A program made the position numbers and the translations under genes. Below the pieces are notes generated by a model. It did no database searches. It worked only from the letters and a program-made list of their open reading frames with translations, and was not told where the DNA came from. This document shows positions 5,852 to 62,238 of a stretch of 64,000 nt of DNA, one piece after another (position 1 is the first letter of the stretch; the number at the start of each line of letters is the position of its first letter). The stretch is from an uncultured Calditrichaceae bacterium (GTDB lineage: Bacteria > Calditrichota > Calditrichia > RBG-13-44-9), in contig CAZUZS010000009.1 in the NCBI GenBank assembly GCA_964624795.1, forward strand, positions 32,361-96,360, given 5' to 3'.

Positions 5852-5861
5852 TTCTATCTCA

Positions 5862-5900: not shown

Positions 5901-5903
5901 TTT

Positions 5904-36382: not shown

Positions 36383-36476
36383 CGATCTTTAATTTGATAA
36401 TTGTTATTTGCCGGCAGAAAGTGCTGGGCGAATCGCAGAGCGCATAAATTCCCGGCTGCTTTGTTTTAGTTGGTTT

Positions 36477-37978: not shown

Positions 37979-38731
37979 TCAATCTGCGAATTGTTGCGCA
38001 AATTTTTTTCTGTTTTTTTGACTATTGAGGCCGATTTGGCTGAGGATGGACCGGACACCGAACCAACCGACTTTGGTGAAGCCGTATGCTTCGGTGTTAA
38101 GAAGCTTGTTGATTTTATATGCACCCAGGTGTGGGTTATCGGCAACAATGTGTTTTATCTTCTCTTCCAACGGACGCATGGAAAGCGGTAATTCTCTGCG
38201 ATGATCTCTTACCTCGGCTGATGCTGAAATTGGCTCGACCTTTCCGTCCGGCGCAGAAGCCGATCTTGGCTTTGGCGGCAGATAGGATTCTTCCTCTTCT
38301 TCAGCCGCGGGACTGGCGCTCTGCACCCCGGCAGACTCTCGTATTACGGTAGCGGCTGCTTCCGGCTTTCGTGCAACTTCCTCAAATTTCATTATTGCAT
38401 CTTCTGTGGCATCGTAAACATCCAGTATATGATGAAATTCAAGCAGTTCAAAAATCTCATACACATCGGGAATCATTCGAACCAGTTTAAGGTCGCCGTT
38501 GTGCTCACGGATGGATTTGATTTCGCTGATAAAAATTCCCCAGCCGGCCGAACTGATGTAATCAACGTTTCCAAGGTCGATGATAATGTTATAACGATTT
38601 TGTTTCAGGAGACTATTTAAGGCGCGTTCAACCTCGGAAGATGTGGTCGTATCAATAAAACCTCCAACCTTTATGATGGAGACCTGATTTTGACTTCCCG
38701 CTACCTCAGTCGATACTTGAATGCCTTCCAT
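37979..38731 (-). CDS. STAS-domain (anti-sigma-factor antagonist-like) protein with a C-terminal HTH-like extension
   Basis: The STAS region is VSIIKVGGFIDTTTSSEVERALNSLL...IIIDLGNVDYISSAGWGIFISE. The C-terminal ~90 aa, IKHIVADNPHLGAYKINKLLNTEAYGFTKVGWFGVRSILSQIGL, resembles the HPxxGPRKI...VSxSTVxRIL HTH of IS481-type transposases. Confidence 0.75.
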   Translation of the reverse strand: MEGIQVSTEVAGSQNQVSIIKVGGFIDTTTSSEVERALNSLLKQNRYNIIIDLGNVDYISSAGWGIFISEIKSIREHNGDLKLVRMIPDVYEIFELLEFHHILDVYDATEDAIMKFEEVARKPEAAATVIRESAGVQSASPAAEEEEESYLPPKPRSASAPDGKVEPISASAEVRDHRRELPLSMRPLEEKIKHIVADNPHLGAYKINKLLNTEAYGFTKVGWFGVRSILSQIGLNSQKNRKKFAQQFAD

Positions 38732-43541: not shown

Positions 43542-46500
43542 TTATTTGATATATGCTACTTTGGTTTTATAACTTTTTGATTGACCATCACTATACCGGA
43601 TGTTAAGAATTGCAATATAGACCCCATTCAACACCCGGTTGCCGGCATTATTCGTCCCGTTCCAGATCAACCCATTATTGTTGTGACCGTCATAAAGCTG
43701 ACCACCGGTGAAACTTTTCTGCTGCGAATAGACAAGCCCGCCCAGCAGAGTGTAAATCCGGATCTCGGCGGTGCCATTTTTCTCCATCCAAAAAACGAAA
43801 TTGGTGGAAGCCTCATCCATGCCGAAAGGATTTGGATGGTTGCCAAATATCTTGTCCTTGTCACCAGAAATAACCGTCAGCGCATAAGAACCGCCGACGT
43901 CCCCGCCGGAGCTAAAGAGATTGCCCTGCTCATCGACAATCTCGACCGGGTTGTCATGCGACCCGGTAAATGCGCGGATCGACCCAACATGCAGTTTAAA
44001 GCTCTGGTTCGGTGATTGGCGGCTAAGATTAAGCAGGACGACCAAACTGTCTTTAACGCCGGGTATAATATTCAGGTGATTCGTGAACTCAAGTGGAATT
44101 TCGTCGCCGTCCGCAGATGTGACATCATAGGCGGCGAAGACAGTTGGCGCAGAACCCACTTTTTGCAGATTTCTGAGATATGCCCGGTTCACGATCTTGA
44201 CGGAGTCTATCAGTGAGGAAGGGTTTAATACCGGCGATCCATCGAGCTGTTGCACCAGCAGGCTTAAGCTGTCAATGGTCACAGTAGGCACAAACTCCGA
44301 GACTTTCCGGTTATCGAACACCAGCCCGATAAGCGGCACGTCTTCGGTTCCCTGTTGCCGGATAACATTTTCCTGCTGGCTGAACTCCAATGGTATTACT
44401 ACCAGGCGATGAACTTCGGTAGCAATGGAAAGCGTTGCCGAGCTGCTGTCCGGATCAAGCGCCGCCGGTTGGGCAGTGTTAACATCATTCGGGACCTGGA
44501 CAAACTGCGCCCCGATTCCGGTGCTGATGATTTGCCGTGGCGTCCTCAAATCCCAGCTTACCGAATCCGGGTAAGTGAAAGATTTGACCTGCGTTTCGCC
44601 CGATGCCAGGGCGATAGAATCCTGCGGGTTGAGCTGCAGCCGCAACTGGCCCTGCCCGGAGAGTTGTGCATCTCCCTTATTCCTTATCTTTGCCACCACC
44701 GTGAACGACTGATCAAATGAAAGCCGGTGACCTCCGCCGGTATCGGGCCGGCCTTTGATCCGCAGCCGGAGGCTGAGCATAGCCTTTCGTTCCAGCACGA
44801 AATTGCCGGAGGAATCGGAAGCCAGGGCCTGGCCGCTGTTTGCATCCGTGGCGGCAACCGCAACTTGCAGCGGTATCGTGGTCGGACCGTCGATCGTCGC
44901 CGGTGCCTGTATCTGCCAGCTCACCGATGTTCCGGTAAAGGACTTGGTGGAATCCGGAACCTGCATTCCGGTAATTCGCAATACTGCTGATCGCCGCTCG
45001 CTCACCTGGCTGGAAGCCTCGATTTCGGTCTGCACCGTGAACAACTGGCCAGTGCTGATCCTGGGCTGTGTCTGAATCCCTGCTATTCTAAACAGGGCGC
45101 TTTCCTGAATGACTATGGGCGTCTGCACCTGTGTGACGGTGGTAGAGGCCGTTTGATTGGTCAGCGAATCTTTCGGAATCTGGTTGTAAGTAACAGCAAG
45201 CATCGATGCATTCACAATGTTAACAATCTCGTCATAGAGATCGTTAATTTGCTGTTTTATTCGGCCGGCCCCTGCCGCGAAAGCAGAACCTTCCACGGGC
45301 ATACCTTCCATTGGTGTTTGCATGTGCTGTTGTTTTGCCTGAAGGTTCCGCACCCTGGACATGAGCGCATTCACCTGGCTGTTGCTGTCAACCCGTACTG
45401 TCCAGGTTACCGGCTGATCAACAACGAACGGCTTTACCGGATCCTGGTTCACGAGCTGCAACGAACTGCCGGGCGTCAGCCGCAGTGAAGCAGCGCCGGT
45501 AACTCCCGCCTGGCCGGTATTGCGCACTGTCGCCTGGTAGGTAAATGTCTGACCGTAACTTACCGTATCGTCGCGTGCTCCGGCAGGTTCGGTGATTTCA
45601 GCGCTGAGCGCCAATGTCGCCCGCGTGATTGCCCGCAGCCTCACGAAAGCCGTGTCGCGCAGCGTGAGGTTGTTCACCGGCGAAGTCGACTCTGTGATCA
45701 CCCGAATCACCTTGTCTTGCTGTGTTGCAGTTCCGGGTGCCTTCAAATACCATGTGACCGAACTGTCGGACGGGATAAGCTGCTGTTGATTGCTGGTACT
45801 TGTAACCCCCGATGGCAGCGTAAGTGTTGCCAACCGGTTTTCGGTAAACAGCGGATTCAGATTTACCTTCACTTCCAGCGGTATGCTGTCCTGGTTAGTA
45901 GAAACGGTGATGCTGGTGTCATTCACATTACTGAAGAAATGGAACGACTGAATGGAGAAATTGCCCAGATCCAGCACCCGGATTCCGAAGGTGCGGGTGG
46001 AATCGGATTTAAATACCGGCACGGTGGCGTAATTATTCTCATCATAATACAGCGTGTCATTCAAAATCTTGGGTAATGAGATCGTAAAATCGTGTGAACC
46101 GCCGCTGTTCGAACTCTGCAAATTCCACCTCAGGGTGTCTCCAATTCTCATTGAATGAAGCGTATCGCCCTGCGAAAGCGAAAATGCGCTTGCATCATAG
46201 CGGAGGTGAACCGGTATCTTATTTCCAGGCGAAACGCCGGCTGTCCCTGTATTGGTGACAATCGCCGAAATTTCGAATGGCTGATTTAAAGCCAGGGTGT
46301 CGGGGTAATCCAACACATTAACGTGCAGGTTGGCGCGTTCCACGATGCGCATATCGGTGAAGCGCACCAGGCCGGTATCGACGAACGCCGGCTGGCCGGA
46401 ATTGATATCGATAGCTGCATTGATAATTTGCGCTAAGATAGTTTGCCGATCCGGGTAGGCTGTCGCGGATGTGTAAATTGAATTGACAACAGTGCGGTTC

Positions 46501-49500
46501 TCAAAGATCTGCACGGTGTCTTTGCGTTCCGTGGTGGTCTGATTGAAGCTGAATCCGTCGGGCAGCGTGATCTGGACCTCACTCGAGTCGGTGGTTGGCG
46601 CACTGCTGGCATCGCGATGAACGGTCATCTCCAGCTCGAATTTCTGGAGGGTACTTACGGTATGGTCGCCGGCCCCGGCCGGTTGGTTGATTTCGGCAGT
46701 GAGCCAAATTCGCGAACGCGGCTGCACGGTCACCATCTTCTGTTCGATATCTTCCAGCGTTGCCCCGGTATTCGATTCAATTCCTCTCGCGCGGACGGTA
46801 AGCGTGCTCTCCAGAAAATCAATTAGCGCATCCGTTTCATACCCGCCGCTACCGCCTTCCACGGGAGCCGACAAACGATTATTGGTACTCTTTCCGGCAG
46901 TTCTTATTCCTTTAGTCCCCGAACTGGCAATCTTCTGCAAATTTTCCAGAATTTGTTGGGACAAAGTGTCCGGTGCCCGGATTTGCCAACTGGCAGTTTC
47001 CGAACTGCCCGGTCCTAACGGCAGTACTGTTGAACCTTGAATGGAAAATTCGGCCGGCAAATTGATGATTTCTGCCGTGCGCCCGGTGGCATTGACGCTG
47101 CCGCTCAAATTTACAGTAGCCCGAAGAGTGAATAGCTGCCCCGTCGACACCGTGTCCGTATTGGCATTCAGAATCTCCAGGTTTGTGATGGAAATGCTGC
47201 CGGAAGTTGCGACGTTAACCTGAACATTTGCACGGCTGTTCACGCGGTGAACGAGGCTGTCCGGGTAGTTGTTCTCATCATAGGCGGCCGGTTCCACGTC
47301 TTGATCTATGGTCGCGTAGCATTGTGCATTCCCGGTCAAATCTTTGCTCACCAGACTCCATGAGAGCGGAGCCTGCTTGTTCACCAGCGACGCCCATTTC
47401 AGAGAATCCGCCGGGTTAACAAAAGCAAGCCTCGACGTATCGATACGCAGGGCGACCCGCACAGAGTCACCAGGCTCGATATTGGCAGTACCGGTGTTTT
47501 GCAGCAAACCGGTGACCGCAAACGTTTCGCTCTGCGAAACATTGATCTGGGTGCTGTCCAGCGACAGGACCAATGCAGCGCGGTTAACAGTTTTGAGCTG
47601 AATCGTTCCGATTGCGCCCGCAATAACCGCCGGAGCGTTGGTGTTTTCGTCGCTCGCCGCCGATTCCAGCGCTATCCTTATTCTCTCGGGCTGTACGTGC
47701 GCAACAGTATCGGTGAAGATCTCCAGGGAACGGTAATTCAACGAATCGGTTGCTACCTGCAACAGCGAATCTGCTTGAGTATGATCATATTTTCTGAAAT
47801 AATAGCCGCCGGGCAGGGATATTTTCACGGTATTCAAACCAGTGGTACCAGCTTCACCGCCATTTTGAATCCAGGTATGAATTACAAATTTTTGCCAGGT
47901 GCTGACCTCCAGATCGATCGCGCCTTCCGGTTCGGCAACCTCCCACTGCAGCGCCAGCGAAGCACGCGGCTGTACAGTTACAGGAAGTGTCTTTGGCTCC
48001 GACTGAATCCGATCCCCGCTGTGCTCATCGAAAGCAGAGGCTTCCACCGTAATGTTTTCTACCACACCACTCAACAGTTCATTAGGAATGTTCCCACCTT
48101 CCGGCGAGTTGCCGGGCGCGAGGAAATTACCACCGGATTTGCCACTCTTGCCGCTCAAAGCCGATCCCGCTACAGTATCCGGGACCTTAATCACCCACAC
48201 GGCAGAATCTTCAACCAGGTCCTGCTGAGCACTGCCGTTCAGCAAATCAAATCCTGGCGGCAGGGTAATCTGTGCCCGGCGACCAGTATCCGCAACCCCA
48301 AGTGTAAAGGCCACTTTGGCGCGAAGCGTAAATTGCTGGCCGCTCGAAAGCGTGGAGTCCATTGCCCCCTGCGGATGCGTAATGTCCAAGGCAATTGATT
48401 CTATACGTGCCGCAGATACGGTATGAACCGTAACCGAAGCTTGCTGGTTTACAAGTGAAGCGGTGGAGTCAATATTAATATCATTCGGAATTTGGACATA
48501 GTAAACGCTGATGATATCGCCACTCGGCCCCGATGGCGTGGTCGGCGCTAAAATGCTCCAGGTGACCGTATTCGCGGCCTGGGTAAAGAATTGGGTATCG
48601 GGATCAGCGGAATTATAGCCTGCCGACGGCGGCAGGACCAATCGCAATCTGCCACTATTGTCGATGGCAGCCTGCCCTATGTTTTCAACAGTCGCAGAGA
48701 GATCAAATGTTTGCCCTGCCGAAACCGTGTCTTTAGCTTCCACCGAAAGCTGCAGATTTGCAGGAGATTGAACCATAACTACGGCATTGTCATCCAGCGC
48801 CGGAGCAATTTGAACAGCGCCCCCTGTTAGCTGTGAAAATGCGCTGTCCAGTCGGGTGCGAAAGATAGCGGTACCGGATTGTGGTGGCGCAACTGCCGTA
48901 AAGATTATCGTAGTGTCACTTCGCTCCCCAAGGGTGAGGCGGTTAATACTCTGCTGCGGAATATCGTTCAGCAGGAGTTCCACCTTGATGTTTTTCAACG
49001 CTTCCTGCCCGGAATTCTGCAATTGCACACTTATCGGGAAACGTTGGCCATAGTTCACATTGGGAAAGTTGGGCAGCGAGTCGACAGGAACCGAGGTGGC
49101 GAAGATTCGGATTTGACCGGGCCTTAAAACCGTCACAGTTTTCAGAGTGTCCGATAATCGCGAAAATATTTTTTCCGGTGCCACAGAATCCTGGTAAGTC
49201 ACACGCGCCTTAAGGAAAATCCTGCCGGTATCCGCCTGTGCCGTGATCCCTAATGAAATTGGCAGATCCTTCGAATCCTGGCTGCGCAATTGCAGTTGAG
49301 ACAATGTATCCAATCCGGCGACCGACCACTGGCTGCTTACATTTTGTCCGAGTGAGTTGGTAAAGATCAGGTTTATGGAGTTCACTTCCCCGGTGGAAGG
49401 ACCGTCATTTCGGATTGTGATAGTAGCAGGTATGTTGGACTGACCCTGCGACATGAAATCCGGGATACCGGAAATGCTGCTGGCAAGAATCACGGTAGTA

Positions 49501-55500: not shown

Positions 55501-58500
55501 ATCCGCACACGCAATGTATCGCCCCGTTTCACCTGTCCGGAAGCAGGCGAGATCACATTCACCGAGGCGATCTCAATTGAAGCCACGCTGAATGCATTTG
55601 CCTCGGTAAAGAATGATCCGTTCATGAGTGAGTCGGTACCGGCGCCTCTCAATACAATATCCGGTTCATAGGAAGCAACCAGGAACATAGAGTCCAATAC
55701 ATCCGGACCAAAGGTAATTGGAGTAATAATCCCGGCTGTCCGGTCGGTTTGCAAACCAGCTTTATAAATATGTGTGCCGTCTGAAAAAGTGATATAACTA
55801 TTCTGGTTGCTGGTATCCAACTGAACCTGTATCGGGCCGGGATTACTGATCGATACCGAAAATGAGAATGTCTCCCCTAAGGCAGCGCTTGCCGGCGTAA
55901 GCGAACCTATAACGTACGACAAGCGATAGATCTTTATCAAAACCGTATCGATACCGGCAATGTAAGTCCGGATCAAGGTAGAATCCCTGGTATCATCAAT
56001 CTCCACCGAGTTCAGGATATCGCCGCTTGAATTGGAAACTGAAGAACCGGATGCCAGCACCGCCTTGGAAGGCTGCACGACTTCCGATTTTACCGTCCGG
56101 TTTGGAACAGGATTTCCGTAGAGGTCCGCCACTTTCACAACAAAAGGAACCGAGCCGTGGGGCGGCGCTGAAACGCCATTTGCGGGAATGCCCCGCAAAC
56201 TCACAATCGACAGGTTTTGCGCAGCAGCCGGGTTCGCGACAGCCTGCAGGGTATCGGAAACTATTTTCAGGGAATTTTGGAGCCTTGCCAGCAAATAGTA
56301 GGTTTGGGCAATTGAATCCGGTGTCCAGACAGTCTGGGCAATTCCCTGGCTGTTGGTTACTACCGTTTCGGCGGAAACCGTCCCGCCATTCAGCGGCTCA
56401 AAAATCAGCGTTGAATCTGCTAACGGGTTGTTGAAGCGATCCAGTAGCTTTACCTGTACCGGAATCGGCAGCGGTTGCTTTACTGTTCCGGTCTGGTTGT
56501 TTCCCGCCACAATGGCAATGGAAGCCGCTGTATCAGGGATAACTGCTTCGCCGGCAAAAATGAGGGGAGAACCGCTGGCGTTCGAAAATGAAGTGACTTC
56601 ATATCTTCCCAGTTTATTGCCCAATACCAGCCGCGTCTCTGCAACTCCGGATGGATTGGTCATGGTCTGATATGAGGTTAAGCTTTGCCCGGAAGCACCG
56701 TCGGGGTACTGGGTGATGACAAAGCTGACATCCGCATTGTTTGCCGGATTATTCAGTGAATCGGTTATTCGCACCTGAAATGGAAGGAGTGTTTCCCCAA
56801 TCCTGCCCGTCATGAGGGTGTCATTCAGATTCACATAATTCATAAAACGGGACGACTGCGCCTGGGGATAAGCAGTGAAATAGATGGTATCGGGTGTAGT
56901 AGGCGAATTCTTTACATAAGCCGCTATAGTATCCGGTGAAAGATCGTTGTGAAGCGTCCAGAAAATTTGCGCGATCCCCAACGAGTTTGTTACCGAATAG
57001 GCGCCGGAAACAGACCCGCCTTTTTTGGGCAGCCAGCCAATGCTGTCCCCCGGAACCGGGTTGCCATAGTTATCGTGAACCTCGACCCGGATGGGCAGTG
57101 CAAGACTCTGGCCCGCCACACCGTTCTGGGCATCGGTCTCGGCTATCTTAAACAGGGAATCCGGCACTCCTGCCACGACACGGATGTCGGACGTAACATC
57201 TACCTTACTGGCAGTGTCGCTGATCGCCCGGATGAAAGCCGTGCCAACAGTGCGCCCGCCAAATATTGTTGAATCGGCATGAATGGGATTTAGCACACCA
57301 ATATTATCACCAACAATGCTCCATGTGGAAGGCGTTCGGCCGCGCAGATTCCCCCAGCGGTCGTATCCCGCCGAAAACCACCTGCGCGACGCTCCGGCTG
57401 AAACCGTATCGGAAAGAACTGCTGCGCCTGTTGAATCTTCGATGACAATCGAAGCCAGCGCGCCGTTTGTAACAGTAATTGTTGTGGTGGTATCATTAAT
57501 TAGCGTGGCAGATACCGTTCGAATTTTTCCTGTGCCGGTACTTTGCGGGCTGAAGGTAATATATGAAGCCGGACCTGCCGGAACGCCGACCAGACTTCCC
57601 CCTGCGACCGAGACGGTGTCCCACGGTACAGGCTGATCGCCCAGGTAATTATTTCTTGCATCATAATGCGCAGCGTAAAGTTCAATTGCATCATCGGTTG
57701 TGATGCTGACCGGCGCCATTGCATTGTATGGCGAACCGCCGCCGTTGCCCTGGTCACGGATTACAATATGATGCGCCGCTCCCTTCTTCACGGTGACCAA
57801 CCCGGAAATATCGCTCATTAAATTGAACACAATATCAATGGTGCCGGAGCCAATCTGATCACCGATAAACGTGATCCTGTTGGCGGTTGCCACGGAATCT
57901 TCACCGGGAAGATGAATGAATTTCCCGAGACTACCTGGCGTAATTGACCAGTCCGCGGAAACCAGTCCGGTGAAGTTGCCGGCACCATCATAGCCCGATG
58001 CATACAGCCGAACCGTATCGCCGGCGAGCATCGTTCGGCTAGTCAATTCATTCGTTCCCAAGGAATCGGTGGTTATCAGCACATACGCTGTGTCTCCGTC
58101 CTGAACCGTGATGGTTCCGGTTGAGTCTCCCTTTATCAGGGGATTGGCAGAGAGTACTTTTATATATCCACTCCGGCCGCTAATTGTGGGGGAAAAAGTA
58201 AAATGAGATGCCGGGAGGTCTGTGGATGCGGGAACCAGAGAGCCAGTGGTGCTCCATAATGCGGAGGTGATATCGGCAATGTAATTTCCATAAACATCAA
58301 ATCCTGCGGCGTACATGCTCAGCGTGGAATCGGTCGTCAAATAATCGAACACACTGCCGCTGTACGAGATGCCGCTGCTGTCCGGACCGCTCATGATATT
58401 CAATGAATCAAGCGCACCGGCCACGATCGTAAAGGGAGCCGATATAGCACTCTTTCCAAAACTGTCCGCGATACGGAATGTGAGATTGCGCTGCTTCTTG

Positions 58501-61500
58501 GTGACGACGGCTGCAAATACCGCATTCCCCGAAGCAAGATTTTTTGTTGCCGGCGGGGTGATATTGACACCAGGCGCCGTGCTGTTCAATGTTACCTGGC
58601 GGCTGGAAGTTGTTGCCGCGTTGTTATAAACGTCGAATCCATTAACTACAATATTGAAGCTCTCGCCGGCGGTATGGTGATATGGCGTTATGGAACTGTT
58701 ATCCACTATAGTATAATAGGATATGCTGTCCGGCTTCAGGACAAACGAGAAATCCAGCGATGTCAACGCTCCGAAGCGGACTTGTATGGTGTCGCTGCCG
58801 AAACCGGTGGAGGTAGAAAGGCGATAAGCGGCAGATGCCTGCCCGTTACTTTGGGTAACGGAGAAAACGGAATCCAGCCCTCCACTGACAAAAGATCCGT
58901 TTCCCGTCGAAGTTCTCTTAAACAATATCGATGAATCGGGGATTGCATTTCCGAATTCGTCCTGCAGTTCGGCAGTAATTGTCACGGTATGCCCAACGAT
59001 GCCGGTATTCGTGAGGGCCGAAACAGGAACCAGGGAAAGATTTGTGGTCGGATTAACTGTGATGATCCCGCTCTGGCCGGTAACGAAAGCATTTGTCGCT
59101 TTTTCCGCTTTTACCCGGAAGCTGCCTGCAATTGTGTCTTTTACGGTGATCGTCACAGTCGATTCATTAAGAAAAGGTACAGTCGGTGGCGGTGAAAAGG
59201 TGGCGCTGGTCGATCCCACTGCGCTGAATATCACATCGTCGCTGTTAATTACACCATTGCCGTAGTTGTCCCGCGCCGTCACGGTGAAAGTCAGGCTGTC
59301 CCCGGCAGACATGCTTTGAGTTGTAGCAGGATCAAATTCATAATAGCTTACCGCCGCCGGTAACACCGCCACACTGAATGTCTGTGCAGTCAGTGCACCA
59401 AAACTGACCTCTACCATTCCCGGACTTAGCTCAATGTCTGTCCCCAGGATGTATTCGACCTCGCCTATGCCGCTAACGTTGGTTACCGCCGTTCCGCTGC
59501 TCAGGCTGCCGCCGCCGCTCAAAATGGTGAAACTCAGCGTCGAATCGCTGAGCCCATTTCCATACTGGTCCAGCAATTGCGCCCGAAGCGTTCGGGTCGT
59601 TCCTACTACCCCGCTGCTATCCGGTGTTAACTTTACGATCTCAAATGCCGCAGCCGGATTCACCGTGATCAGCCCGCTCTGACCGGTCACGCCGCTCGCT
59701 CCCTGTTTGCGACCCACGATCGTGAAACTGTCCGCGACCGTGTCCTTTACTGCAACAGTTACCGTTGAAGCCCCATCAAACGAAAGCGTACTTCTTGGCG
59801 AAAAATATGCCGTGGATAAGCCCGATGCTGTAAATATTATGGAATCATTGCTTACCACACCATTGCCGTAATTATCCCGTGCCGTCACGGTGAAGGTCAG
59901 GCTGTCCCCGGCAGACATGCTTTGAGCCGTAATGGGTAAAAAATCATAGTAACTCACTACCGCGGGCGATAACGTCACGCTGAATGTCTGTGCAGTCAGT
60001 GCACCAAAACTGACCTCTACCATTCCCGGACTTAGCTCAATGTCTGTCCCCAGGATGTATTCGACCTCGCCTATGCCGCTAACGTTGGTTACCGCCGTTC
60101 CGCTGCTCAGGCTGCCGCCGCCGCTCAAAATGGTGAAACTCAGCGTCGAATCGCTGAGCCCATTTCCATACTGGTCCAGCAATTGCGCCCGAAGAGTCCG
60201 GGTAGTTCCCACTACCCCGCTGCTATCCGGTGTTAACTTTACGATCTCAAATGCCGCAGCCGGACTCACCGTGATCAGCCCGCTCTGCCCCGTTACCCCG
60301 CTGACTCCCGACTTCTGCGCTTTTAAACTGAAACTCTCTGCCACCGTGTCCTTCACTGTTACAATAACAGCCGATGAGCCGCCAAAATTCAGCGTGGAGC
60401 CTGACGGAAATGTTGCTCCCGTTGCCCCAACCGGTGTGAACACGACATCATCACTATTGATTACTGCATTGCCATAATTGTCCCGCGCTGTTACCGTGAA
60501 AGTCAGGGTGTCTCCGGCAGACACATTTTGATCGGTATTGGGTAAAAAATCATAATAACTTACCGTGCTTCCCAAAACCTGTACCGACCAGCCGACGTCG
60601 GTGCTCACCTGGTTCGCTGTGGAATCCAATCGTGCATCGTAGCGCGATTGGTAATTCCCCGTGCCCAGTGCGGAGGGCATGGTTTGCATGAAATTTATCA
60701 CCAGTGAATCTTTTACATCGAAAGGGGAAGTCTGCACAAAAATGGAATCTGTCCCCGGATCGTAGTTCCAGGTGGCAAAACCCGGCCTGGCTGGCGCAGT
60801 TGTGGTATTCTGAATGGGTGCACTGTAATTGTTTATTTTTATGCCGGTCACTATCGGTGTGCTCGCTGCAAAAGGATTGGCAATGGCAAGCCGGTCCATT
60901 TTCCCAAGCGATGAGGTGTCGCCCGCAACATCAATATTGTCTATCCGGTAGGTCAACGACTGAAAATTGGTGCCGGCCGCCACCGAAGCAGGAGATATGG
61001 CAGCATCTGCCAGGTTCCCTAAATGCTTCGGATGAAACAGGATGGCGGAGCTCGGTGCAATAGCGCCCTGAGTGTTATAACTGTAGAGCAAGCCGGCGTT
61101 ACCCGACTGAACACCTATGGTCGCCGAGCCGCCGGAAGTACTATCGCTGGGTATTGTCGATAAAGAATGGTATTGAAATTTAATCAGGTTGGTTCTTTCG
61201 TAAAGAACGATTTCAAAAGTAATGATACCGGTGCTCGGTGCAGCCGGCCACTGTTCAAACTGATGCCATTCGACAACTACCTGCCGGTTGGGACTTTCAC
61301 CCACCTTGCGAAAATAGACATTTCCCGGAATATGCGTATCCAGGTCGTCCCAATAGGCAGCCAGCATGGTTGCCGGGCCGGAAACGTAGGGTATGGAATC
61401 ATTCTGTGGATGGGAGCCCGCAGGATCGGTGAAACTGGCGAATCCATTACTGGAGACCCAAATCGTGGAATAGGATGTGCCGTAGAAGGTGAAGGGAAAA

Positions 61501-61721
61501 GGCAAAGAAATAGATGCAACGGCGTCAAGATTGCCAGGACCATAAGTGAAAATCGCGGTGGTATCGGTGACATCGATCCAATCGTATGTAGCCGTTGTAC
61601 TGGAAGGTGTTTTGGTATCGGTCCACATATATCCATAAGTGTCTTTTCCGCCCTGATTGGCAAACACTCCGGAAATAAATAAAAATAATATGCTAATTAC
61701 GCGTAGTAACCGTTTCGTCAT
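43542..61721 (-). CDS. Giant (~6060 aa) T9SS-secreted surface adhesin made of tandem Ig-like (Big_1/invasin-type) and CARDB/DUF11-like domains
   Basis: The signal peptide MTKRLLRVISILFLFISGVFA starts at the ATG at 61721. The uninterrupted ORF extends to 61820. Big_1-like repeats include LTFTVTARDNYGNAV. Dozens of ~100-aa repeats carry (V/I)xNxGxxxA motifs (VRNTGQAGL, ITNSGQASI, IENTGETTA). The C-terminal ~85 aa, HPNPFGMDE...GVYIAILNIRYSDG, is a T9SS sorting domain. Confidence 0.9.
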   Translation of the reverse strand: MTKRLLRVISILFLFISGVFANQGGKDTYGYMWTDTKTPSSTTATYDWIDVTDTTAIFTYGPGNLDAVASISLPFPFTFYGTSYSTIWVSSNGFASFTDPAGSHPQNDSIPYVSGPATMLAAYWDDLDTHIPGNVYFRKVGESPNRQVVVEWHQFEQWPAAPSTGIITFEIVLYERTNLIKFQYHSLSTIPSDSTSGGSATIGVQSGNAGLLYSYNTQGAIAPSSAILFHPKHLGNLADAAISPASVAAGTNFQSLTYRIDNIDVAGDTSSLGKMDRLAIANPFAASTPIVTGIKINNYSAPIQNTTTAPARPGFATWNYDPGTDSIFVQTSPFDVKDSLVINFMQTMPSALGTGNYQSRYDARLDSTANQVSTDVGWSVQVLGSTVSYYDFLPNTDQNVSAGDTLTFTVTARDNYGNAVINSDDVVFTPVGATGATFPSGSTLNFGGSSAVIVTVKDTVAESFSLKAQKSGVSGVTGQSGLITVSPAAAFEIVKLTPDSSGVVGTTRTLRAQLLDQYGNGLSDSTLSFTILSGGGSLSSGTAVTNVSGIGEVEYILGTDIELSPGMVEVSFGALTAQTFSVTLSPAVVSYYDFLPITAQSMSAGDSLTFTVTARDNYGNGVVSNDSIIFTASGLSTAYFSPRSTLSFDGASTVTVAVKDTVADSFTIVGRKQGASGVTGQSGLITVNPAAAFEIVKLTPDSSGVVGTTRTLRAQLLDQYGNGLSDSTLSFTILSGGGSLSSGTAVTNVSGIGEVEYILGTDIELSPGMVEVSFGALTAQTFSVAVLPAAVSYYEFDPATTQSMSAGDSLTFTVTARDNYGNGVINSDDVIFSAVGSTSATFSPPPTVPFLNESTVTITVKDTIAGSFRVKAEKATNAFVTGQSGIITVNPTTNLSLVPVSALTNTGIVGHTVTITAELQDEFGNAIPDSSILFKRTSTGNGSFVSGGLDSVFSVTQSNGQASAAYRLSTSTGFGSDTIQVRFGALTSLDFSFVLKPDSISYYTIVDNSSITPYHHTAGESFNIVVNGFDVYNNAATTSSRQVTLNSTAPGVNITPPATKNLASGNAVFAAVVTKKQRNLTFRIADSFGKSAISAPFTIVAGALDSLNIMSGPDSSGISYSGSVFDYLTTDSTLSMYAAGFDVYGNYIADITSALWSTTGSLVPASTDLPASHFTFSPTISGRSGYIKVLSANPLIKGDSTGTITVQDGDTAYVLITTDSLGTNELTSRTMLAGDTVRLYASGYDGAGNFTGLVSADWSITPGSLGKFIHLPGEDSVATANRITFIGDQIGSGTIDIVFNLMSDISGLVTVKKGAAHHIVIRDQGNGGGSPYNAMAPVSITTDDAIELYAAHYDARNNYLGDQPVPWDTVSVAGGSLVGVPAGPASYITFSPQSTGTGKIRTVSATLINDTTTTITVTNGALASIVIEDSTGAAVLSDTVSAGASRRWFSAGYDRWGNLRGRTPSTWSIVGDNIGVLNPIHADSTIFGGRTVGTAFIRAISDTASKVDVTSDIRVVAGVPDSLFKIAETDAQNGVAGQSLALPIRVEVHDNYGNPVPGDSIGWLPKKGGSVSGAYSVTNSLGIAQIFWTLHNDLSPDTIAAYVKNSPTTPDTIYFTAYPQAQSSRFMNYVNLNDTLMTGRIGETLLPFQVRITDSLNNPANNADVSFVITQYPDGASGQSLTSYQTMTNPSGVAETRLVLGNKLGRYEVTSFSNASGSPLIFAGEAVIPDTAASIAIVAGNNQTGTVKQPLPIPVQVKLLDRFNNPLADSTLIFEPLNGGTVSAETVVTNSQGIAQTVWTPDSIAQTYYLLARLQNSLKIVSDTLQAVANPAAAQNLSIVSLRGIPANGVSAPPHGSVPFVVKVADLYGNPVPNRTVKSEVVQPSKAVLASGSSVSNSSGDILNSVEIDDTRDSTLIRTYIAGIDTVLIKIYRLSYVIGSLTPASAALGETFSFSVSISNPGPIQVQLDTSNQNSYITFSDGTHIYKAGLQTDRTAGIITPITFGPDVLDSMFLVASYEPDIVLRGAGTDSLMNGSFFTEANAFSVASIEIASVNVISPASGQVKRGDTLRVRMSINNQGSVPIRVDDSQTTPLVSRAGEPPLAAMFSKASIADSLVNPGTNTIDYWWTVPGDFALGEYVLDGKFQGEVVGSGSIISASGAISPSTFQVIQAARIHYVSGPLPSRVTSGDSAELSIQLSNAGQTNVVLTPASTFLTFDADTFYLKTSQTITAGNSQTLNFQKGPVISPARLSTRQIFVVLAGEEYGVPFTATVDTNAAVINIDNIPGNVVVRHLSITPSTASQDQDSLRVLFEVYNPGPLNAPVQVQNLSDIVLQGPQQFNYFIDNSSAPAFPVTIARGGSQQFDYFISIPSSYPPGTDSIFASLDYSDSNTGTVYNRAYPDSGAALQVLPRASLQIDTIFATPQVVSQGQSGVQISMVVTNTGEVAGTISAAALQFLNNHTINTTPLLPRTVSPAAPETLQYTITINSSAALGEDPIKGSLTYSDSLNGKSYDYPLTEKGSLLIQSFNQALVRINSVSVNELYVNQGHQGNILANVSITNSGQASISLQKLQLKFSPDTLGQSLVSTLPDVIGGNSTKNYTVNIQIPDSTVPGTIHLDAKIGYIDLNSSQSYSDSLAVVRDSLIIQEPAVINVHKLTVTPDTVSAGKTGLTLAFTARNTGQAGLNLTLSSLSGTGVNNLTRLSPVGLPAIINGGDSSSFVYRGNAASNIGSYPINFLLSGTDRNDGRPVGPDSSATPAVLTVRQPGALFIDSVVVAEPTVFIGQQDVAATVYIRNSGQMPVTIDNVILGFNPSLGFAQTLHSALGDTVAGGNSVAASFTFSLLSTAQTGTVTVGAQASGTEIDLQQSRNATAGVSALDTFEVIPGPQLRILSVSSDYDSVSLGQSGISVRVKLRNNGGVPAVVDTVALKFSQGTFANLVITPALSLPANSSPQVVTFNNVSVNPASQTGLATINARLSATVGGNVLKVQNADTSYSWRIVTKGSLQPVNYSPVAITRGNNVTFTAQIRNAGQANIYLLPDVTTLFIGGFGISITDTVSVPGGQQRAVVFPQSLINLPPGNYPVSLRMDQYQENGGYYSATLNFTGTLRVDSPVSLDTSAVTYPRIISQNMTLPIHYTLSNGGNSAPAHIDSITIASLGYTNANGYLLNGGGTHSDSLVPFIDTTYAGTLNNITVRFYWTDQNASTHASQALTLQPVTIHRQAKLAIRDINGPTAVYAGQNNIEVQVSIENTGETTAEIDAADLTHHIGPYVITPLQIPTRIRAGEQLPFVFRVDIDANTATGADFFGAVAAYHDSLNQLSQSVSADSLHSWSIYQEAGAEILSVTSPEVEVTQGQKNIPVTVRVRNGGGQPLRVDTLSLISRHAGDSNYRYYAQFVPPVTVNANETKLFEFLVDVRDVAQAGPDSLDARLAGIVNFGGNVIPLNVDSATTVQPWVIKQKPNLQVEGIQLAPERMSKGQDFATLSTQIRNSAGGAPMAAAVLDSVKILINGNPNDTANFDLQRQTNLPLTIQPGDQADVNFRIRPRTNAESGNYILQTLLYYHAPKVDSTMQVAGVVRDTVIVEEPAVFTFLSIVPNRDTTHWGKQNDSLSIVLRNDGEATARINNGSILIGGTGEPIQTVLLSPPLPTDLAGGSSMQFNYALNYPASPGFDALASYRAIVSGTDQNSGFSLQDTSSASGAAQVQILTPPKIGFVAGSLNPANLEVQSDITFRMVVRNTGSSRIVLIPDSTKFSVLSSPDQSTTLQSPAFIDAHDTTTLKFRPVSLSLQNGTYSTQLSLRGVVHGEAYSRDLIGQPLDVGAAITIPDVYFPALSGNRQVVLGDTAITIEMQVRNFTAQKLELNPDPAVTGLHIRNTTTNDLYDSTFSLRRVDTVTVLKELDQVTLQFKIDIPLLDVPVGGYKVQGRVQTSAPSVLSYQTVDSAASFRVISGAKLVYDSLLPNIGIAGQNRMFQTRIGNDALSAVQLNAANTVLTLSRGTDILATNLQANYVLPGKDSSGADIKYTTISFQEVPIPAGFQPGSYNLQLHLEGTLQTGDPFTNFDTTASGEFTLRDTTVILASSISGIPDFMSQGQSNIPATITIRNDGPSTGEVNSINLIFTNSLGQNVSSQWSVAGLDTLSQLQLRSQDSKDLPISLGITAQADTGRIFLKARVTYQDSVAPEKIFSRLSDTLKTVTVLRPGQIRIFATSVPVDSLPNFPNVNYGQRFPISVQLQNSGQEALKNIKVELLLNDIPQQSINRLTLGERSDTTIIFTAVAPPQSGTAIFRTRLDSAFSQLTGGAVQIAPALDDNAVVMVQSPANLQLSVEAKDTVSAGQTFDLSATVENIGQAAIDNSGRLRLVLPPSAGYNSADPDTQFFTQAANTVTWSILAPTTPSGPSGDIISVYYVQIPNDINIDSTASLVNQQASVTVHTVSAARIESIALDITHPQGAMDSTLSSGQQFTLRAKVAFTLGVADTGRRAQITLPPGFDLLNGSAQQDLVEDSAVWVIKVPDTVAGSALSGKSGKSGGNFLAPGNSPEGGNIPNELLSGVVENITVEASAFDEHSGDRIQSEPKTLPVTVQPRASLALQWEVAEPEGAIDLEVSTWQKFVIHTWIQNGGEAGTTGLNTVKISLPGGYYFRKYDHTQADSLLQVATDSLNYRSLEIFTDTVAHVQPERIRIALESAASDENTNAPAVIAGAIGTIQLKTVNRAALVLSLDSTQINVSQSETFAVTGLLQNTGTANIEPGDSVRVALRIDTSRLAFVNPADSLKWASLVNKQAPLSWSLVSKDLTGNAQCYATIDQDVEPAAYDENNYPDSLVHRVNSRANVQVNVATSGSISITNLEILNANTDTVSTGQLFTLRATVNLSGSVNATGRTAEIINLPAEFSIQGSTVLPLGPGSSETASWQIRAPDTLSQQILENLQKIASSGTKGIRTAGKSTNNRLSAPVEGGSGGYETDALIDFLESTLTVRARGIESNTGATLEDIEQKMVTVQPRSRIWLTAEINQPAGAGDHTVSTLQKFELEMTVHRDASSAPTTDSSEVQITLPDGFSFNQTTTERKDTVQIFENRTVVNSIYTSATAYPDRQTILAQIINAAIDINSGQPAFVDTGLVRFTDMRIVERANLHVNVLDYPDTLALNQPFEISAIVTNTGTAGVSPGNKIPVHLRYDASAFSLSQGDTLHSMRIGDTLRWNLQSSNSGGSHDFTISLPKILNDTLYYDENNYATVPVFKSDSTRTFGIRVLDLGNFSIQSFHFFSNVNDTSITVSTNQDSIPLEVKVNLNPLFTENRLATLTLPSGVTSTSNQQQLIPSDSSVTWYLKAPGTATQQDKVIRVITESTSPVNNLTLRDTAFVRLRAITRATLALSAEITEPAGARDDTVSYGQTFTYQATVRNTGQAGVTGAASLRLTPGSSLQLVNQDPVKPFVVDQPVTWTVRVDSNSQVNALMSRVRNLQAKQQHMQTPMEGMPVEGSAFAAGAGRIKQQINDLYDEIVNIVNASMLAVTYNQIPKDSLTNQTASTTVTQVQTPIVIQESALFRIAGIQTQPRISTGQLFTVQTEIEASSQVSERRSAVLRITGMQVPDSTKSFTGTSVSWQIQAPATIDGPTTIPLQVAVAATDANSGQALASDSSGNFVLERKAMLSLRLRIKGRPDTGGGHRLSFDQSFTVVAKIRNKGDAQLSGQGQLRLQLNPQDSIALASGETQVKSFTYPDSVSWDLRTPRQIISTGIGAQFVQVPNDVNTAQPAALDPDSSSATLSIATEVHRLVVIPLEFSQQENVIRQQGTEDVPLIGLVFDNRKVSEFVPTVTIDSLSLLVQQLDGSPVLNPSSLIDSVKIVNRAYLRNLQKVGSAPTVFAAYDVTSADGDEIPLEFTNHLNIIPGVKDSLVVLLNLSRQSPNQSFKLHVGSIRAFTGSHDNPVEIVDEQGNLFSSGGDVGGSYALTVISGDKDKIFGNHPNPFGMDEASTNFVFWMEKNGTAEIRIYTLLGGLVYSQQKSFTGGQLYDGHNNNGLIWNGTNNAGNRVLNGVYIAILNIRYSDGQSKSYKTKVAYIK
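59349..60560. repeat. Intragenic tandem repeat of two 606-bp units (202 aa each), with a third diverged unit continuing to ~58740
   Basis: DNA at 59372-59700 is near-identical to 59978-60306, an offset of 606 bp. The two protein units are 100% identical over ~107 aa (GVTGQSGLITV...FGALTAQTFSV) but only about 60% identical in their first halves. Confidence 0.8.
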
Positions 61722-61743
61722 AATTGCTTCCTGTACTCTTTGA

Positions 61744-62238
61744 TTAACGGTTGGAAATAGAAGGTATGATGCCTGAAGCGAACACCTGGTCTGATACTTT
61801 ATTGCCATCGGAGCCGGCAACGATTTCTTTAAAATTTACCTGGTTTTTAACCAGTGGTGTTTTCAAGATATTTCCAACACACTTTATGTGCAATTCATCG
61901 CTGCTTTTTAAAAGATTTTCTTCAAAAAACAACATGATGCCTTCAGGCACCTTCTGCCAGGCAACAACCGAATCCCTGACAGGTTCCGAAAAGCTGTTTT
62001 GAAGCCAGACCTGTTTTTTATTTATTTCGAGAGAAACCGGTATGAGTACGATTTCCTTTGGCATCTCCACAAGTATACCATTTGCAGGGGCAATATTCAA
62101 ATTCAGCGTCAGATCGCATTCCCAATCGGAGGTCGTCTGCGGGATCGGATCTATCCGAACTCCAACCTCTGCCTGTTGGGCATAAATTCCCGTGATTAAA
62201 AACAAAATCATTATGAGACTTAATGATTTTAGATGCAT
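61744..62238 (-). CDS. Small secreted hypothetical protein immediately upstream of the giant adhesin gene
   Basis: The signal peptide is MHLKSLSLIMILFLITGIYAQQ. 164 aa. The stop lies 22 bp before the adhesin ATG. Confidence 0.5.
   Translation of the reverse strand: MHLKSLSLIMILFLITGIYAQQAEVGVRIDPIPQTTSDWECDLTLNLNIAPANGILVEMPKEIVLIPVSLEINKKQVWLQNSFSEPVRDSVVAWQKVPEGIMLFFEENLLKSSDELHIKCVGNILKTPLVKNQVNFKEIVAGSDGNKVSDQVFASGIIPSISNR

What the first reader, a model, noticed from the sequence alone, without database searches (positions are those of the whole stretch)
43542..61721. 6060-aa T9SS-sorted giant adhesin with an unusual N-terminal domain and Big_1 plus many CARDB-like repeats
It is one of the largest bacterial ORF classes, with a signal peptide and a C-terminal T9SS domain that together imply surface display via type IX secretion. 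The first ~330 residues, NQGGKDTYGYMWTDT...WDDLDTHIPGNVYF...ITFEIVLYERTN, are unlike the downstream repeats and could be the ligand-binding head. It probably dominates the cell-surface proteome.
Basis: seen in the sequence. Interest (0 to 1): 0.6.

Follow-up and report, generated by a model that had tools for sequence, protein, structure and literature searches.

The report
Giant surface fibre protein of Calditrichota
This is a real 6059-residue gene for a very long, bead-on-a-string cell-surface protein of a Calditrichota bacterium, apparently exported by a type IX-like secretion route with its own PorV-like carrier gene next door; it is a new example of a familiar kind of giant bacterial adhesin, and its 'unusual' head domain belongs to a very common but poorly annotated family.

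Summary
The ORF is real: minus strand, 43542-61721, 6059 aa, 642 kDa, one Cys. Independent assemblies confirm it, including the complete Caldithrix abyssi genome, so it is neither a chimera nor a pseudogene. The order of parts is signal peptide, a ~240-aa all-beta head, about 50 Ig-like domains (11 Big_1-like, 28 CARDB-like, the rest unclassified), a conserved pre-CTD region, and a ~100-aa C-terminal domain. That last domain resembles T9SS type A sorting domains but scores below the curated cutoff.

The head is not unusual. It is NIDO-like (Pfam PF06119, partial match). Its family has more than 37,000 cluster representatives. A profile of it matches the N-terminus of a Flavobacterium RemA-family gliding adhesin (E 9e-24).

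Fourteen bases downstream lies a PorV/PorQ-family 14-strand barrel fused to a TPR domain. This giant-plus-PorV-TPR pair, with its flanking genes, was found in all five Calditrichota genomes where the junction could be read. The giant varies from 3534 to 6059 aa.

The best reading is a T9SS-type, carrier-linked surface fibril that holds a binding head at its tip. It is a new member of a known kind. Adhesion, surface abundance and the presence of a T9SS core in this genome remain untested.

The parts
43542..61721 (-). Giant CDS: 6059 aa plus stop, 641.6 kDa, pI 4.9, a single Cys
   Evidence: ORF list and translation. Collinear orthologues: L002 3534 aa, L018 tail in one HSP at 42% identity over 3422 columns, and the C. 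abyssi tail.
61656..61721 (-). Sec-type signal peptide (aa 1-22)
   Evidence: Sequence inspection. The same N-terminal pattern appears in orthologues. No predictor was run.
60936..61655 (-). NIDO-like all-beta head domain (aa 23-262)
   Evidence: Pfam NIDO 30.3 bits (cutoff 25), but only model positions 2-53 of 186. The profile hits PDB 8gl6_D (RemA/RemZ) aa 61-342 at E 9e-24. The AF2 model has a core pLDDT of 85-97 and about 12 strands. Foldseek finds no significant PDB match. 37,668 library representatives match.
60585..60875 (-). First CARDB/DUF11-like Ig domain (aa 283-379), conserved in orthologues
   Evidence: Self-derived repeat HMM, E 5.6e-16. Weak Pfam Ig_GEX2_N/DUF7927 hits. Orthologue alignment A8.
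58419..60530 (-). Big_1-like block A: 7 domains (aa 398-1101), including three 202-aa two-domain units
   Evidence: Pfam Big_1. Self-HMM. 606-nt period.
59376..60281 (-). Stretch holding two almost identical ~300-nt copies (aa 481-580 and 683-782), 606 nt apart. Copy number of this unit is the one place where a short-read assembly could be wrong.
   Evidence: Per-window DNA identity of 56-60 out of 60. Direct repeats.
57129..58418 (-). About four unclassified ~100-aa repeats (aa 1102-1531)
   Evidence: Internal self-similarity between 1000-1100 and 1300, and between 1200 and 1400. No Pfam family at E<=1. A weak Big_3_3 hit lies nearby.
55965..57128 (-). Big_1-like block B: 4 domains (aa 1532-1919)
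   Evidence: Pfam Big_1, best stretch aa 1529-1587. Self-HMM.
48819..55910 (-). Run of about 20 CARDB-like ~105-aa domains at a period of about 120 aa (aa 1938-4301)
   Evidence: Self-HMM, E 1e-8 to 1e-28. Pfam CARDB, NPCBM_assoc and Wzt_C at segment level. Only 3 of 21 single units reach CARDB at E<=1.
44511..48749 (-). Composite repeat region (aa 4325-5737): larger modules that mix CARDB-like domains with unclassified domains and Gly/Ser/Lys-rich loops. Most of aa 3258-5535 is absent from the 3534-aa orthologue.
   Evidence: Self-similarity map. Self-HMM. Comparison with L002. Present and collinear in L018.
43845..44504 (-). Conserved pre-CTD region (aa 5740-5959), no family match
   Evidence: No Pfam hit at E<=1. 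Conserved in L002, L017, L018 and L019.
43545..43844 (-). C-terminal T9SS type A-like sorting domain (aa 5960-6059), with the motifs NHPNPF, WNGTN and NGVY
   Evidence: NCBIfam: PorU C-terminus E 1e-8, PorZ C-terminus 3e-5, TIGR04183 19.3 bits (cutoff 23). Pfam CHU_C 24.2 bits (cutoff 27). BLASTP to the type A CTD of ORF 5907-7349, E 5e-7. Profile A5 hits PorU CTD 6za2_A at 6.8e-5 and 8glj_D at 0.011.
41623..43527 (-). Downstream gene (14-nt gap): PorV/PorQ-family 14-strand outer-membrane barrel (aa 39-314) fused to a ~320-aa helical TPR domain. Proposed cognate carrier or anchor.
   Evidence: NF033709 128.7 bits (cutoff 90). AF2 pLDDT 83.4, 14 strands plus TPR. Foldseek top hits are the PorV chains 8gl6_F and 6h3i_F, E 4e-10. 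About 635 aa and conserved across Calditrichota. Adjacent to the giant in 5 other loci from 4 other genomes.
61744..62238 (-). Upstream small secreted protein (164 aa; stop lies 22 nt before the giant's ATG). Conserved in close relatives; function unknown.
   Evidence: No Pfam or NCBIfam hit. Orthologues in L002, L003, L004 and L015. Weak similarity to giant aa ~290-345 (BLASTP E 2e-4; hhalign probability 25%). Promoter-like site at 62358-62330.
62348..63499 (-). Upstream TPR protein (383 aa), found upstream of the giant in all ten Calditrichota loci that hold enough upstream sequence to test
   Evidence: Pfam TPR. tblastn hits at 33-69% identity in L002-L010 and L015.

Best explanation
The ORF encodes a ~640-kDa cell-surface fibril of a Calditrichota bacterium.

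Proposed route (inferred):
1. The Sec system exports the protein using the N-terminal signal peptide.
2. A type IX-like pathway carries it across the outer membrane. That pathway recognises the C-terminal type A-like sorting domain.
3. The product of the next gene, a PorV-family barrel with a periplasmic TPR extension, collects the sorting domain. It then either holds the fibril on the cell or passes it to an attachment step. This follows PorV (type A cargo) and SprF (the cognate carrier of SprB) in Bacteroidota.

Shown:
- The protein is a chain of about 50 Ig-like beta-sandwich domains.
- The only non-repeat module, a NIDO-like head, sits at the N-terminus.

Inferred: if the C-terminus is at the membrane, the head sits at the distal tip, on the order of 150-250 nm from the cell. 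The head is homologous to the N-terminal domain of Flavobacterium RemA-family adhesins. It most likely binds a polymeric or particulate substrate, or other cells.

The repeat number changes quickly between species (3534-6059 aa), whereas the head, the pre-CTD region, the CTD and the carrier gene are conserved.
For: - A real, conserved gene.
- Domain map.
- CTD: best matches are the C-terminal sorting domains of PorU, PorZ and T9SS-dependent proteases. It aligns to a type A CTD that passes the cutoff in the same window. Its profile hits solved T9SS CTDs. All six family CTDs match TIGR04183 at E<=0.1, the best at 1.1e-8.
- Carrier: NF033709 is above its cutoff. The model is a 14-strand barrel whose best structural matches are PorV. 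The gap to the giant is 14 nt with no terminator-like site between them. The pair is adjacent in the window and in 5 other loci from 4 other genomes, including C. abyssi.
- Head: NIDO hit, RemA/RemZ profile hit at E 9e-24, confident all-beta model. Of the 149 top-scoring family members retrieved, 15 also end in a T9SS-type CTD.
- Published precedent: carrier genes lying directly downstream of T9SS cargo genes (PMC12618676), and CTD binding to PorV inside SprA (PMC10994853).
- In another Calditrichota lineage, c-di-GMP turnover genes sit just upstream of the giant. This fits a regulated adhesin.
Against: - The window's own CTD is below the curated cutoffs (TIGR04183 19.3 against 23; CHU_C 24.2 against 27). 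It also resembles FlgD Ig-like domains.
- No T9SS core gene (SprA/Sov, PorK/L/M/N, PorU) was seen in the window or in the flanks examined. I could not scan a whole Calditrichota genome.
- The papers I found list other FCB phyla as possible T9SS holders but not Calditrichota (PMC11285876). No held paper links the two.
- The PorV-TPR protein may simply be the phylum's general PorV rather than a carrier dedicated to this cargo.
- Nothing here shows binding, surface location or expression.
Confidence: 0.68

Rival explanations
1. It is a mobile gliding-type adhesin like SprB or RemA. The fibril, held by its PorV-TPR carrier, would be driven along the cell surface by a periplasmic motor through the TPR arm.
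For: The head is homologous to the RemA-family N-terminus. Its size is similar to SprB (about 6500 aa, from my own knowledge). A carrier-like barrel gene lies directly downstream, as sprF does for sprB. The periplasmic TPR extension could dock to periplasmic machinery.
Against: The C. abyssi genome paper reports flagellar and type IV pilus genes but no Bacteroidetes-type gliding machinery (PMC5317091). The CTD is type A-like, not the type B kind that SprB uses: no TIGR04131 hit appeared at E<=1. No gld or spr genes were found in the flanks.
Confidence: 0.08
2. It is mainly a structural coat or matrix protein, such as a surface layer, a spacer 'fur' or a cell-cell cohesion matrix, rather than a ligand-specific adhesin. 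The head would serve self-association or attachment to the envelope.
For: It is present in all Calditrichota genomes examined, in a fixed gene neighbourhood. That looks more like a housekeeping envelope component than an accessory adhesin. It is acidic and lacks Cys, as many surface-layer proteins do. The neighbouring genes encode envelope proteins: patatin-Omp85, DUF4159 and DUF4175.
Against: Repeat number varies nearly two-fold between species, which is typical of adhesin stalks. The single distal head resembles known adhesin architecture. No SLH or S-layer family was detected at a meaningful level.
Confidence: 0.15
3. The C-terminal domain is only a FlgD-Ig-like beta-sandwich and not a secretion signal. 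The protein would reach the surface by another route, and the PorV-like neighbour would be an unrelated FadL-type channel.
For: Scores fall below the cutoffs on T9SS CTD models, and there are parallel weak hits to FlgD. FadL and TodX are the next-best structural matches of the barrel. A T9SS core was not demonstrated.
Against: The best CTD matches are specifically the sorting domains of PorU, PorZ and T9SS-dependent proteases, at the extreme C-terminus. The barrel passes the curated PorV/PorQ cutoff and matches PorV best in both sequence and fold. A second protein in the window has a type A CTD above the cutoff.
Confidence: 0.07
4. It is an assembly artefact or a pseudogene.
For: There is a ~300-nt near-identical duplication at a 606-nt spacing. 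A short-read assembler could collapse or expand this.
Against: There are no internal stops in 18 kb. The protein is collinear with independent assemblies over at least 3300 aa. Orthologues of 4710 aa and 5333 aa occur in a complete genome and on a 6.28-Mb contig. The only broken orthologue is caused by a masked run of N.
Confidence: 0.02

Closest known systems
RemA / RemZ (Fjoh_0803) family of Flavobacterium johnsoniae: T9SS type A cargo and mobile surface adhesins
   Same: The order of parts matches: signal peptide, N-terminal NIDO-like domain, repeats, type A-type CTD. A profile of the head matches the chain deposited as RemA (8gl6_D) at aa 61-342 with E 9e-24. The CTD profile hits the same class of sorting domains.
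   Different: RemA-family proteins are about 1400 aa; this one is 6059. No SUEL/lectin domain was found here. The single window sequence alone does not hit RemA. This protein comes from a different phylum and has a carrier gene linked to it, whereas RemA uses the general, unlinked PorV.
SprB with its downstream carrier SprF (F. johnsoniae gliding adhesin; type B CTD with a PorP/SprF-family carrier)
   Same: A giant repetitive surface filament of about 6000 aa or more, with a carrier-type outer-membrane barrel gene directly downstream of the cargo gene (PMC12618676).
   Different: The CTD here is type A-like, not type B; no TIGR04131 hit was found. The neighbour belongs to the PorV/PorQ family, with PorP/SprF only at 25.9 bits against a cutoff of 90.55, and it carries a TPR domain. 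No gliding machinery is reported in C. abyssi.
PorV (F. johnsoniae and P. gingivalis T9SS carrier of type A cargo)
   Same: The neighbour's barrel passes NF033709. The model has 14 strands. PorV chains are its best matches in both fold (E 4e-10, TM 0.65 on the target) and sequence profile (E 1.1e-14).
   Different: It scores far below the PorV, PorQ and PorV2 equivalog cutoffs: 46, 51 and 83 bits against 250, 220 and 325. It has a ~320-aa C-terminal TPR domain that is absent from the 402-residue PorV chain in the PDB (6h3i_F). All source-named homologues come from Calditrichota except one labelled Caldisericaceae.
NIDO domain (Pfam PF06119) of nidogen, MUC4 and alpha-tectorin
   Same: The score is above the gathering cutoff (30.3 against 25). 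The FYG...NG..sF segment is shared. The domain sits at the N-terminus of a large extracellular protein. In alpha-tectorin the NIDO domain mediates collagen binding.
   Different: Only model positions 2-53 of 186 align. The bacterial family is much larger and is mostly not recognised by the Pfam model; for example, the RemZ fragment gives no NIDO hit. No solved structure matches the model by Foldseek.
Giant Ig-repeat adhesins secreted by other routes (for example LapA/SiiE-type T1SS adhesins)
   Same: A long stalk of tandem bacterial Ig-like domains with a variable copy number. In a related lineage, c-di-GMP genes lie nearby.
   Different: This protein has an N-terminal Sec signal and a C-terminal T9SS-type domain, rather than a C-terminal RTX/T1SS signal. 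No T1SS genes are adjacent.

Membership tests
T9SS type A cargo (TIGR04183 Por_Secre_tail) | N-terminal Sec signal peptide | tested here: met
   MTKRLLRVISILFLFISGVFA/NQGG, by inspection. Conserved in orthologues. No predictor was available.
T9SS type A cargo (TIGR04183 Por_Secre_tail) | Domain at the extreme C-terminus that scores above the curated cutoff of the type A model | tested here: inconclusive
   This protein scores 19.3 bits against a cutoff of 23 (E 8e-4). All six family CTDs tested match at E<=0.1, the best at 1.1e-8. Hits to the PorU C-terminus (E 1e-8) and to the solved PorU CTD (E 6.8e-5) support homology.
T9SS type A cargo (TIGR04183 Por_Secre_tail) | The genome encodes the T9SS core (SprA/Sov, PorK/L/M/N, PorU) and secretion depends on it | not testable with these tools
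   Only a PorV-family gene and a second CTD protein were found in the window. No core genes were found in the flanks.
T9SS type B cargo (SprB-like, TIGR04131) | C-terminal type B sorting domain | tested here: not met
   The NCBIfam scan of the last 300 aa at E<=1 lists no TIGR04131 hit.
Pfam NIDO (PF06119) | Score above the gathering threshold | tested here: met
   28.4 to 30.3 bits against a cutoff of 25. Many homologues carry a precomputed PF06119 annotation.
Pfam NIDO (PF06119) | Alignment across the whole ~186-position domain | tested here: not met
   Only model positions 2-53 align. It is therefore best called NIDO-like.
RemA family | Homologous N-terminal domain together with a lectin (SUEL-type) module and a length of about 1400 aa | tested here: not met
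   The N-terminal domain is homologous at profile level. No lectin family was detected, and the length is 6059 aa.
Big_1 (PF02369) repeat proteins | Score above the gathering threshold, with multiple copies | tested here: met
   83.2 and 78.7 bits against 34.9. 11 units by self-HMM.
CARDB (PF07705) repeat proteins | Individual repeats recognised by the model | tested here: inconclusive
   The segment-level score of 54.8 against 22.7 passes. Only 3 of 21 single units match at E<=1, the best at 1.3e-5. All 28 units are related to one another by the self-HMM.
PorV/PorQ family (NF033709), for the neighbour 41623-43527 | Score above the curated cutoff, and a 14-strand FadL-like barrel | tested here: met
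   128.7 bits against 90. 14 strands in the AF2 model. Best Foldseek and profile hits are PorV.
PorV equivalog (NF033710) / PorQ equivalog (NF033711), for the neighbour | Score above the equivalog cutoff | tested here: not met
   46.3 bits against 250 and 51.2 against 220. It is a family member but not a demonstrable orthologue of either.

The most novel reading that the evidence does not exclude
Calditrichota may carry a lineage-specific variant of type IX cargo handling. In it, a PorV-family barrel with a long periplasmic TPR arm would be dedicated to one giant fibril with a NIDO-like head. The arm would couple the surface fibril to periplasmic machinery or to the adjacent RsbW/PP2C/STAS partner-switching module. 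Display, release or movement of the fibril would then be controlled from inside the cell, in a phylum outside Bacteroidota where no T9SS has been described.
Probability: 0.15. Interest if true: 0.65.

Novelty: new member of a known kind. Interest (0 to 1): 0.36.

Why it matters
The giant itself is a familiar object: an Ig-repeat surface fibril with a T9SS-type tail. Three points make it useful.

1. It extends T9SS-type cargo and carrier genes to Calditrichota. The held papers that discuss T9SS distribution do not name this phylum.
2. The pairing of cargo with a PorV-TPR gene, found in all five genomes where the junction could be read, is a natural test case. It asks whether type A-like cargo can have a dedicated carrier, as type B cargo does in Flavobacterium.
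3. The head belongs to a very large family of secreted-protein domains (more than 37,000 representatives). Pfam covers it only partly, NCBIfam not at all, and Foldseek finds no solved structure that matches the model. A cultured organism, Caldithrix abyssi, carries the orthologous locus, so experiments are possible.

Tried and rejected
- Whole-protein self-BLAST returned only the identity hit. I replaced it with a windowed self-comparison.
- Tandem Repeats Finder found nothing because the period exceeds its 500-nt limit and the copies are divergent.
- Single-sequence searches of the head and the CTD against PDB found nothing useful. Profiles were needed.
- Foldseek of the head model against PDB gave no significant match.
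- A search with the conserved C-terminal 525 aa returned only 4 proteins, a limit of the word index. So I did not obtain a list of full-length family members or the N-terminus of the C. abyssi protein.
- Pfam on the unclassified segments (aa 1101-1532, 4425-4716, 4958-5131, 5217-5380, 5740-5960, 3103-3224) gave no families.
- Scanning upstream flanks of orthologous loci for T9SS core genes found none.
- The idea that the L006 orthologue is a pseudogene was rejected. The break is a masked run of 100 N.
- The idea that the 164-aa upstream protein is a Skp-like chaperone was dropped. Its sequence does not look like a coiled-coil Skp (by eye only), and it has only a weak resemblance to the giant's first Ig domain.
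- Horizontal transfer, suggested by the higher G+C of the gene (0.50-0.55 against 0.42-0.49 in the flanks), was rejected. The locus is present and syntenic in every Calditrichota genome examined, and the composition follows the Ala/Gly/Ser/Thr-rich protein.
Full report
OBSERVATION

The window holds one uninterrupted reading frame on the minus strand, 43542..61820. Three things support this start: an AGGAAG motif five bases upstream, the end of the preceding ORF at 61744, and orthologues whose N-termini begin at the same methionine. The product is 641.6 kDa, acidic (pI 4.9), rich in Ser, Thr, Val, Ala and Gly, and has a single cysteine.

IS IT REAL?

Yes. The gene has orthologues in Calditrichota genomes only.

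- The orthologue in L002 (a Calditrichaceae MAG) is 3534 aa. It is collinear at both ends: aa 1-1283 at 39% identity, 378-3051 against 580-3258 at 42%, and the last 526 aa at 43%.
- The last 3321 aa of the orthologue in GCA_053998915.1 (L018) align to window residues 2700-6059 in a single segment at 42% identity. The part missing from L002 is therefore genuine, not a chimera.
- Orthologues of 4710 aa occur in the complete Caldithrix abyssi genome. Orthologues of 5333 aa occur on a 6.28-Mb and a 2.26-Mb contig, and one of 5344 aa in L018.
- The one apparently broken orthologue (L006) is interrupted by a masked run of 100 N.

One caveat remains. Two ~300-nt stretches (aa 481-580 and 683-782) are almost identical in DNA and lie 606 nt apart. 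The copy number of that unit could be misjudged by a short-read assembly.

ANATOMY

- **Signal peptide.** Residues 1-22 look like a Sec signal peptide. This is by inspection only.
- **Head.** Residues 23-262 form a separate all-beta domain.
- **Big_1-like domains.** A profile built from the protein itself finds 11 of these, at aa 398-1101 and 1532-1919. Pfam agrees: Big_1 at 83 and 79 bits against a cutoff of 34.9.
- **CARDB-like units.** A second self-derived profile finds 28 related units of about 105 aa between residues 283 and 5737, including a dense run of about 20 at 1938-4301. Pfam recognises CARDB at segment level (54.8 bits against 22.7). It recognises only 3 of 21 single units at E<=1, so 'CARDB-like' is the right wording.
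- **Unclassified repeats.** These two profiles cover 61% of the protein. The remaining repeat-like stretches match no Pfam family.
- **Composite region.** Residues 4325-5737 consist of larger modules with Gly/Ser/Lys-rich loops.
- **Pre-CTD.** Residues 5740-5959 are conserved among orthologues and match no family.
- **C-terminal domain.** Residues 5960-6059.

THE HEAD

Pfam places aa 86-140 in NIDO (PF06119) at 28.4 to 30.3 bits against a cutoff of 25. Only positions 2-53 of the 186-position model align. NCBIfam has nothing for this region.

The closest relatives are N-terminal fragments of the same giant family (44-58% identity). Next come ~440-aa Chloroflexota proteins that combine this domain with FG-GAP/VCBS repeats.

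A profile of the domain finds 37,668 representatives at E<=1e-3 among 1.84 billion clusters at 50% identity, and 4,049 at E<=1e-30. Many are large proteins with several copies. Of the 149 best hits retrieved, 15 also end in a T9SS-type CTD.

Against the PDB, the profile hits one chain, 8gl6_D, at residues 61-342 with E 9e-24. The depositors call that chain RemA. [quoted passage not shown] That fits the Foldseek result: the AlphaFold model of the head (pLDDT 76.8 overall, 85-97 in the core, about 12 strands) has no significant PDB match.

So the head is not unusual. It belongs to a very common secreted-protein domain family that is poorly annotated and has no solved structure I could find. The family is shared with known T9SS adhesins. 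In alpha-tectorin the N-terminal NIDO domain is described as mediating collagen binding (bioRxiv 10.1101/2024.01.04.574255). That is an analogy, not evidence about this protein.

THE TAIL

The last ~100 residues carry the motifs NHPNPF, WNGTN and NGVY.

- The best NCBIfam matches are the C-terminal sorting domains of PorU (E 1e-8), a T9SS-dependent protease, and PorZ. TIGR04183 scores 19.3 bits, below its cutoff of 23.
- Pfam CHU_C scores 24.2 against a cutoff of 27.
- The tail aligns to the C-terminus of another ORF in the window (5907-7349), which does pass TIGR04183 at 30.7 bits, with E 5e-7.
- A profile of the tails of five orthologues plus that ORF hits the solved PorU CTD (E 6.8e-5) and an F. 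johnsoniae sorting domain (E 0.011). FlgD Ig-like domains follow.
- No type B sorting domain was detected.

I read this as a divergent type A-like sorting domain. The curated membership threshold is not met by this sequence alone.

THE NEIGHBOUR

Fourteen bases after the stop codon starts a 634-aa ORF, 41623-43527.

- Residues 39-314 pass the curated PorV/PorQ family model (128.7 bits against 90). They fall far short of the PorV, PorQ and PorV2 equivalog cutoffs.
- The AlphaFold model (pLDDT 83.4) has 14 strands, followed by a long helix and a TPR solenoid that runs to residue 633.
- Its best structural matches are the PorV chains of the solved T9SS translocon (8gl6_F and 6h3i_F, E 4e-10, TM 0.65 on the target). 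FadL and TodX come next. The sequence profile also hits PorV, at E 1.1e-14.
- The fusion is about 635 aa in every listed full-length homologue. All those named by a source are from Calditrichota, apart from one MAG labelled Caldisericaceae. They include C. abyssi at 43% identity.

In the window, L002, C. abyssi, L018 and L019/L020, the PorV-TPR gene directly follows the giant. In all of these except L002, whose locus ends there, it is followed by the same genes:

- an RsbW-like kinase / HAMP / PP2C protein
- a STAS protein
- DUF456 (absent from L019/L020)
- DUF4159
- a ~1140-aa protein (DUF4175-like in the window)
- a patatin-POTRA-Omp85 protein

Upstream, a 383-aa TPR protein is present in all ten Calditrichota loci that hold enough upstream sequence to test. 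A small secreted protein of about 164 aa sits just before the giant in the closer relatives.

MECHANISM

Shown: the domain order, the conservation, and the linkage to the PorV-family gene.

Inferred from published T9SS work: after Sec export, the C-terminal domain is recognised at the outer-membrane translocon and collected by the PorV-like barrel. The barrel's TPR domain follows its last strand and so should face the periplasm. The fibril then stays attached through its C-terminal end.

About 50 beta-sandwich domains would then hold the head roughly 150-250 nm from the cell. This is my estimate, assuming 3.5-4.5 nm per domain.

Variable repeat number with a conserved head, tail and carrier is what one expects of an adhesin stalk. 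In a more distant lineage (L006), a diguanylate cyclase and an HD-type phosphodiesterase-like gene lie just upstream. This fits, weakly, a regulated adhesin.

WHAT IS NOT SHOWN

- No T9SS core gene was found in the window or in the flanks examined. I could not scan a whole genome.
- The held literature lists several other FCB phyla as possible T9SS holders, but not Calditrichota. No held paper links the two.
- The C. abyssi genome paper reports no Bacteroidetes-type gliding machinery. This argues against a SprB-like motile role.
- Binding, surface location, abundance and expression are all untested.

VERDICT

It is a new member of a known kind. The cognate PorV-TPR gene is the feature most worth following up.

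Noticed in passing
window 5907-7349 (-): This 481-aa ORF has a T9SS type A sorting domain above the curated cutoff (TIGR04183 30.7 bits against 23). It is therefore a second T9SS-type cargo in the window. The rest of the protein matched no NCBIfam family.
   Followed up: partly
window 38809-41562 (-) and 37979-38731 (-): A 917-aa fusion of an RsbW-like kinase domain (HATPase_c_2), HAMP, a PP2C/SpoIIE phosphatase and a C-terminal transposase-like HTH (aa 671-785) is followed by a STAS protein. This partner-switching module sits directly after the PorV-TPR gene in all five loci that extend past that gene (the window, C. abyssi, L018, L019/L020).
   Followed up: partly
window 30064-37265 (-): The conserved block continues with DUF4159, a 1142-aa DUF4175-like protein, and an 896-aa patatin-POTRA-Omp85 fusion. 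The same order is found in C. abyssi, L018 and L019/L020.
   Followed up: no
window 61744-62238 (-): The small secreted protein just upstream of the giant has no family match. It shows weak similarity to the giant's first Ig-like domain, aa ~290-345 (BLASTP E 2e-4; hhalign probability 25%, E 8e-4). It may be a detached relative of that domain.
   Followed up: partly
window 59376-59675 and 59982-60281: Two ~300-nt stretches inside the giant gene are almost identical in DNA, while the rest of the 606-nt repeat unit has diverged. This suggests recent gene conversion or duplication, or an assembly effect.
   Followed up: partly
L006 4461-9263: In a more distant Calditrichaceae MAG, a GGDEF diguanylate cyclase (544 aa) lies just upstream of the conserved TPR gene. 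An HDIG/HD-type phosphodiesterase-like protein (578 aa) lies between that TPR gene and the small ORF that precedes the giant.
   Followed up: no
PDB 8gl6 chain D: The chain is deposited under the name RemA. The paper says the trapped substrate is RemZ (Fjoh_0803), a RemA homologue, with only the CTD resolved. Pfam does not recognise its N-terminal region as NIDO, although the bacterial profile matches it at E 9e-24.
   Followed up: yes
window 60936-61655 and library hits P0234-P0382: The NIDO-like domain family has 37,668 representatives and up to 14 detected copies per protein. NCBIfam has no model that hits the window's copy, and the Pfam NIDO model matches only its first ~50 positions. It looks like a large, under-annotated domain family.
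   Followed up: partly
window 25556-29323 (-); 8873-10321 (+): An SbcC/Rad50-like and SbcD/Mre11-like gene pair, and a pyrophosphate-dependent phosphofructokinase (NF041103, 664 bits). These are ordinary housekeeping genes unrelated to the finding.
   Followed up: no
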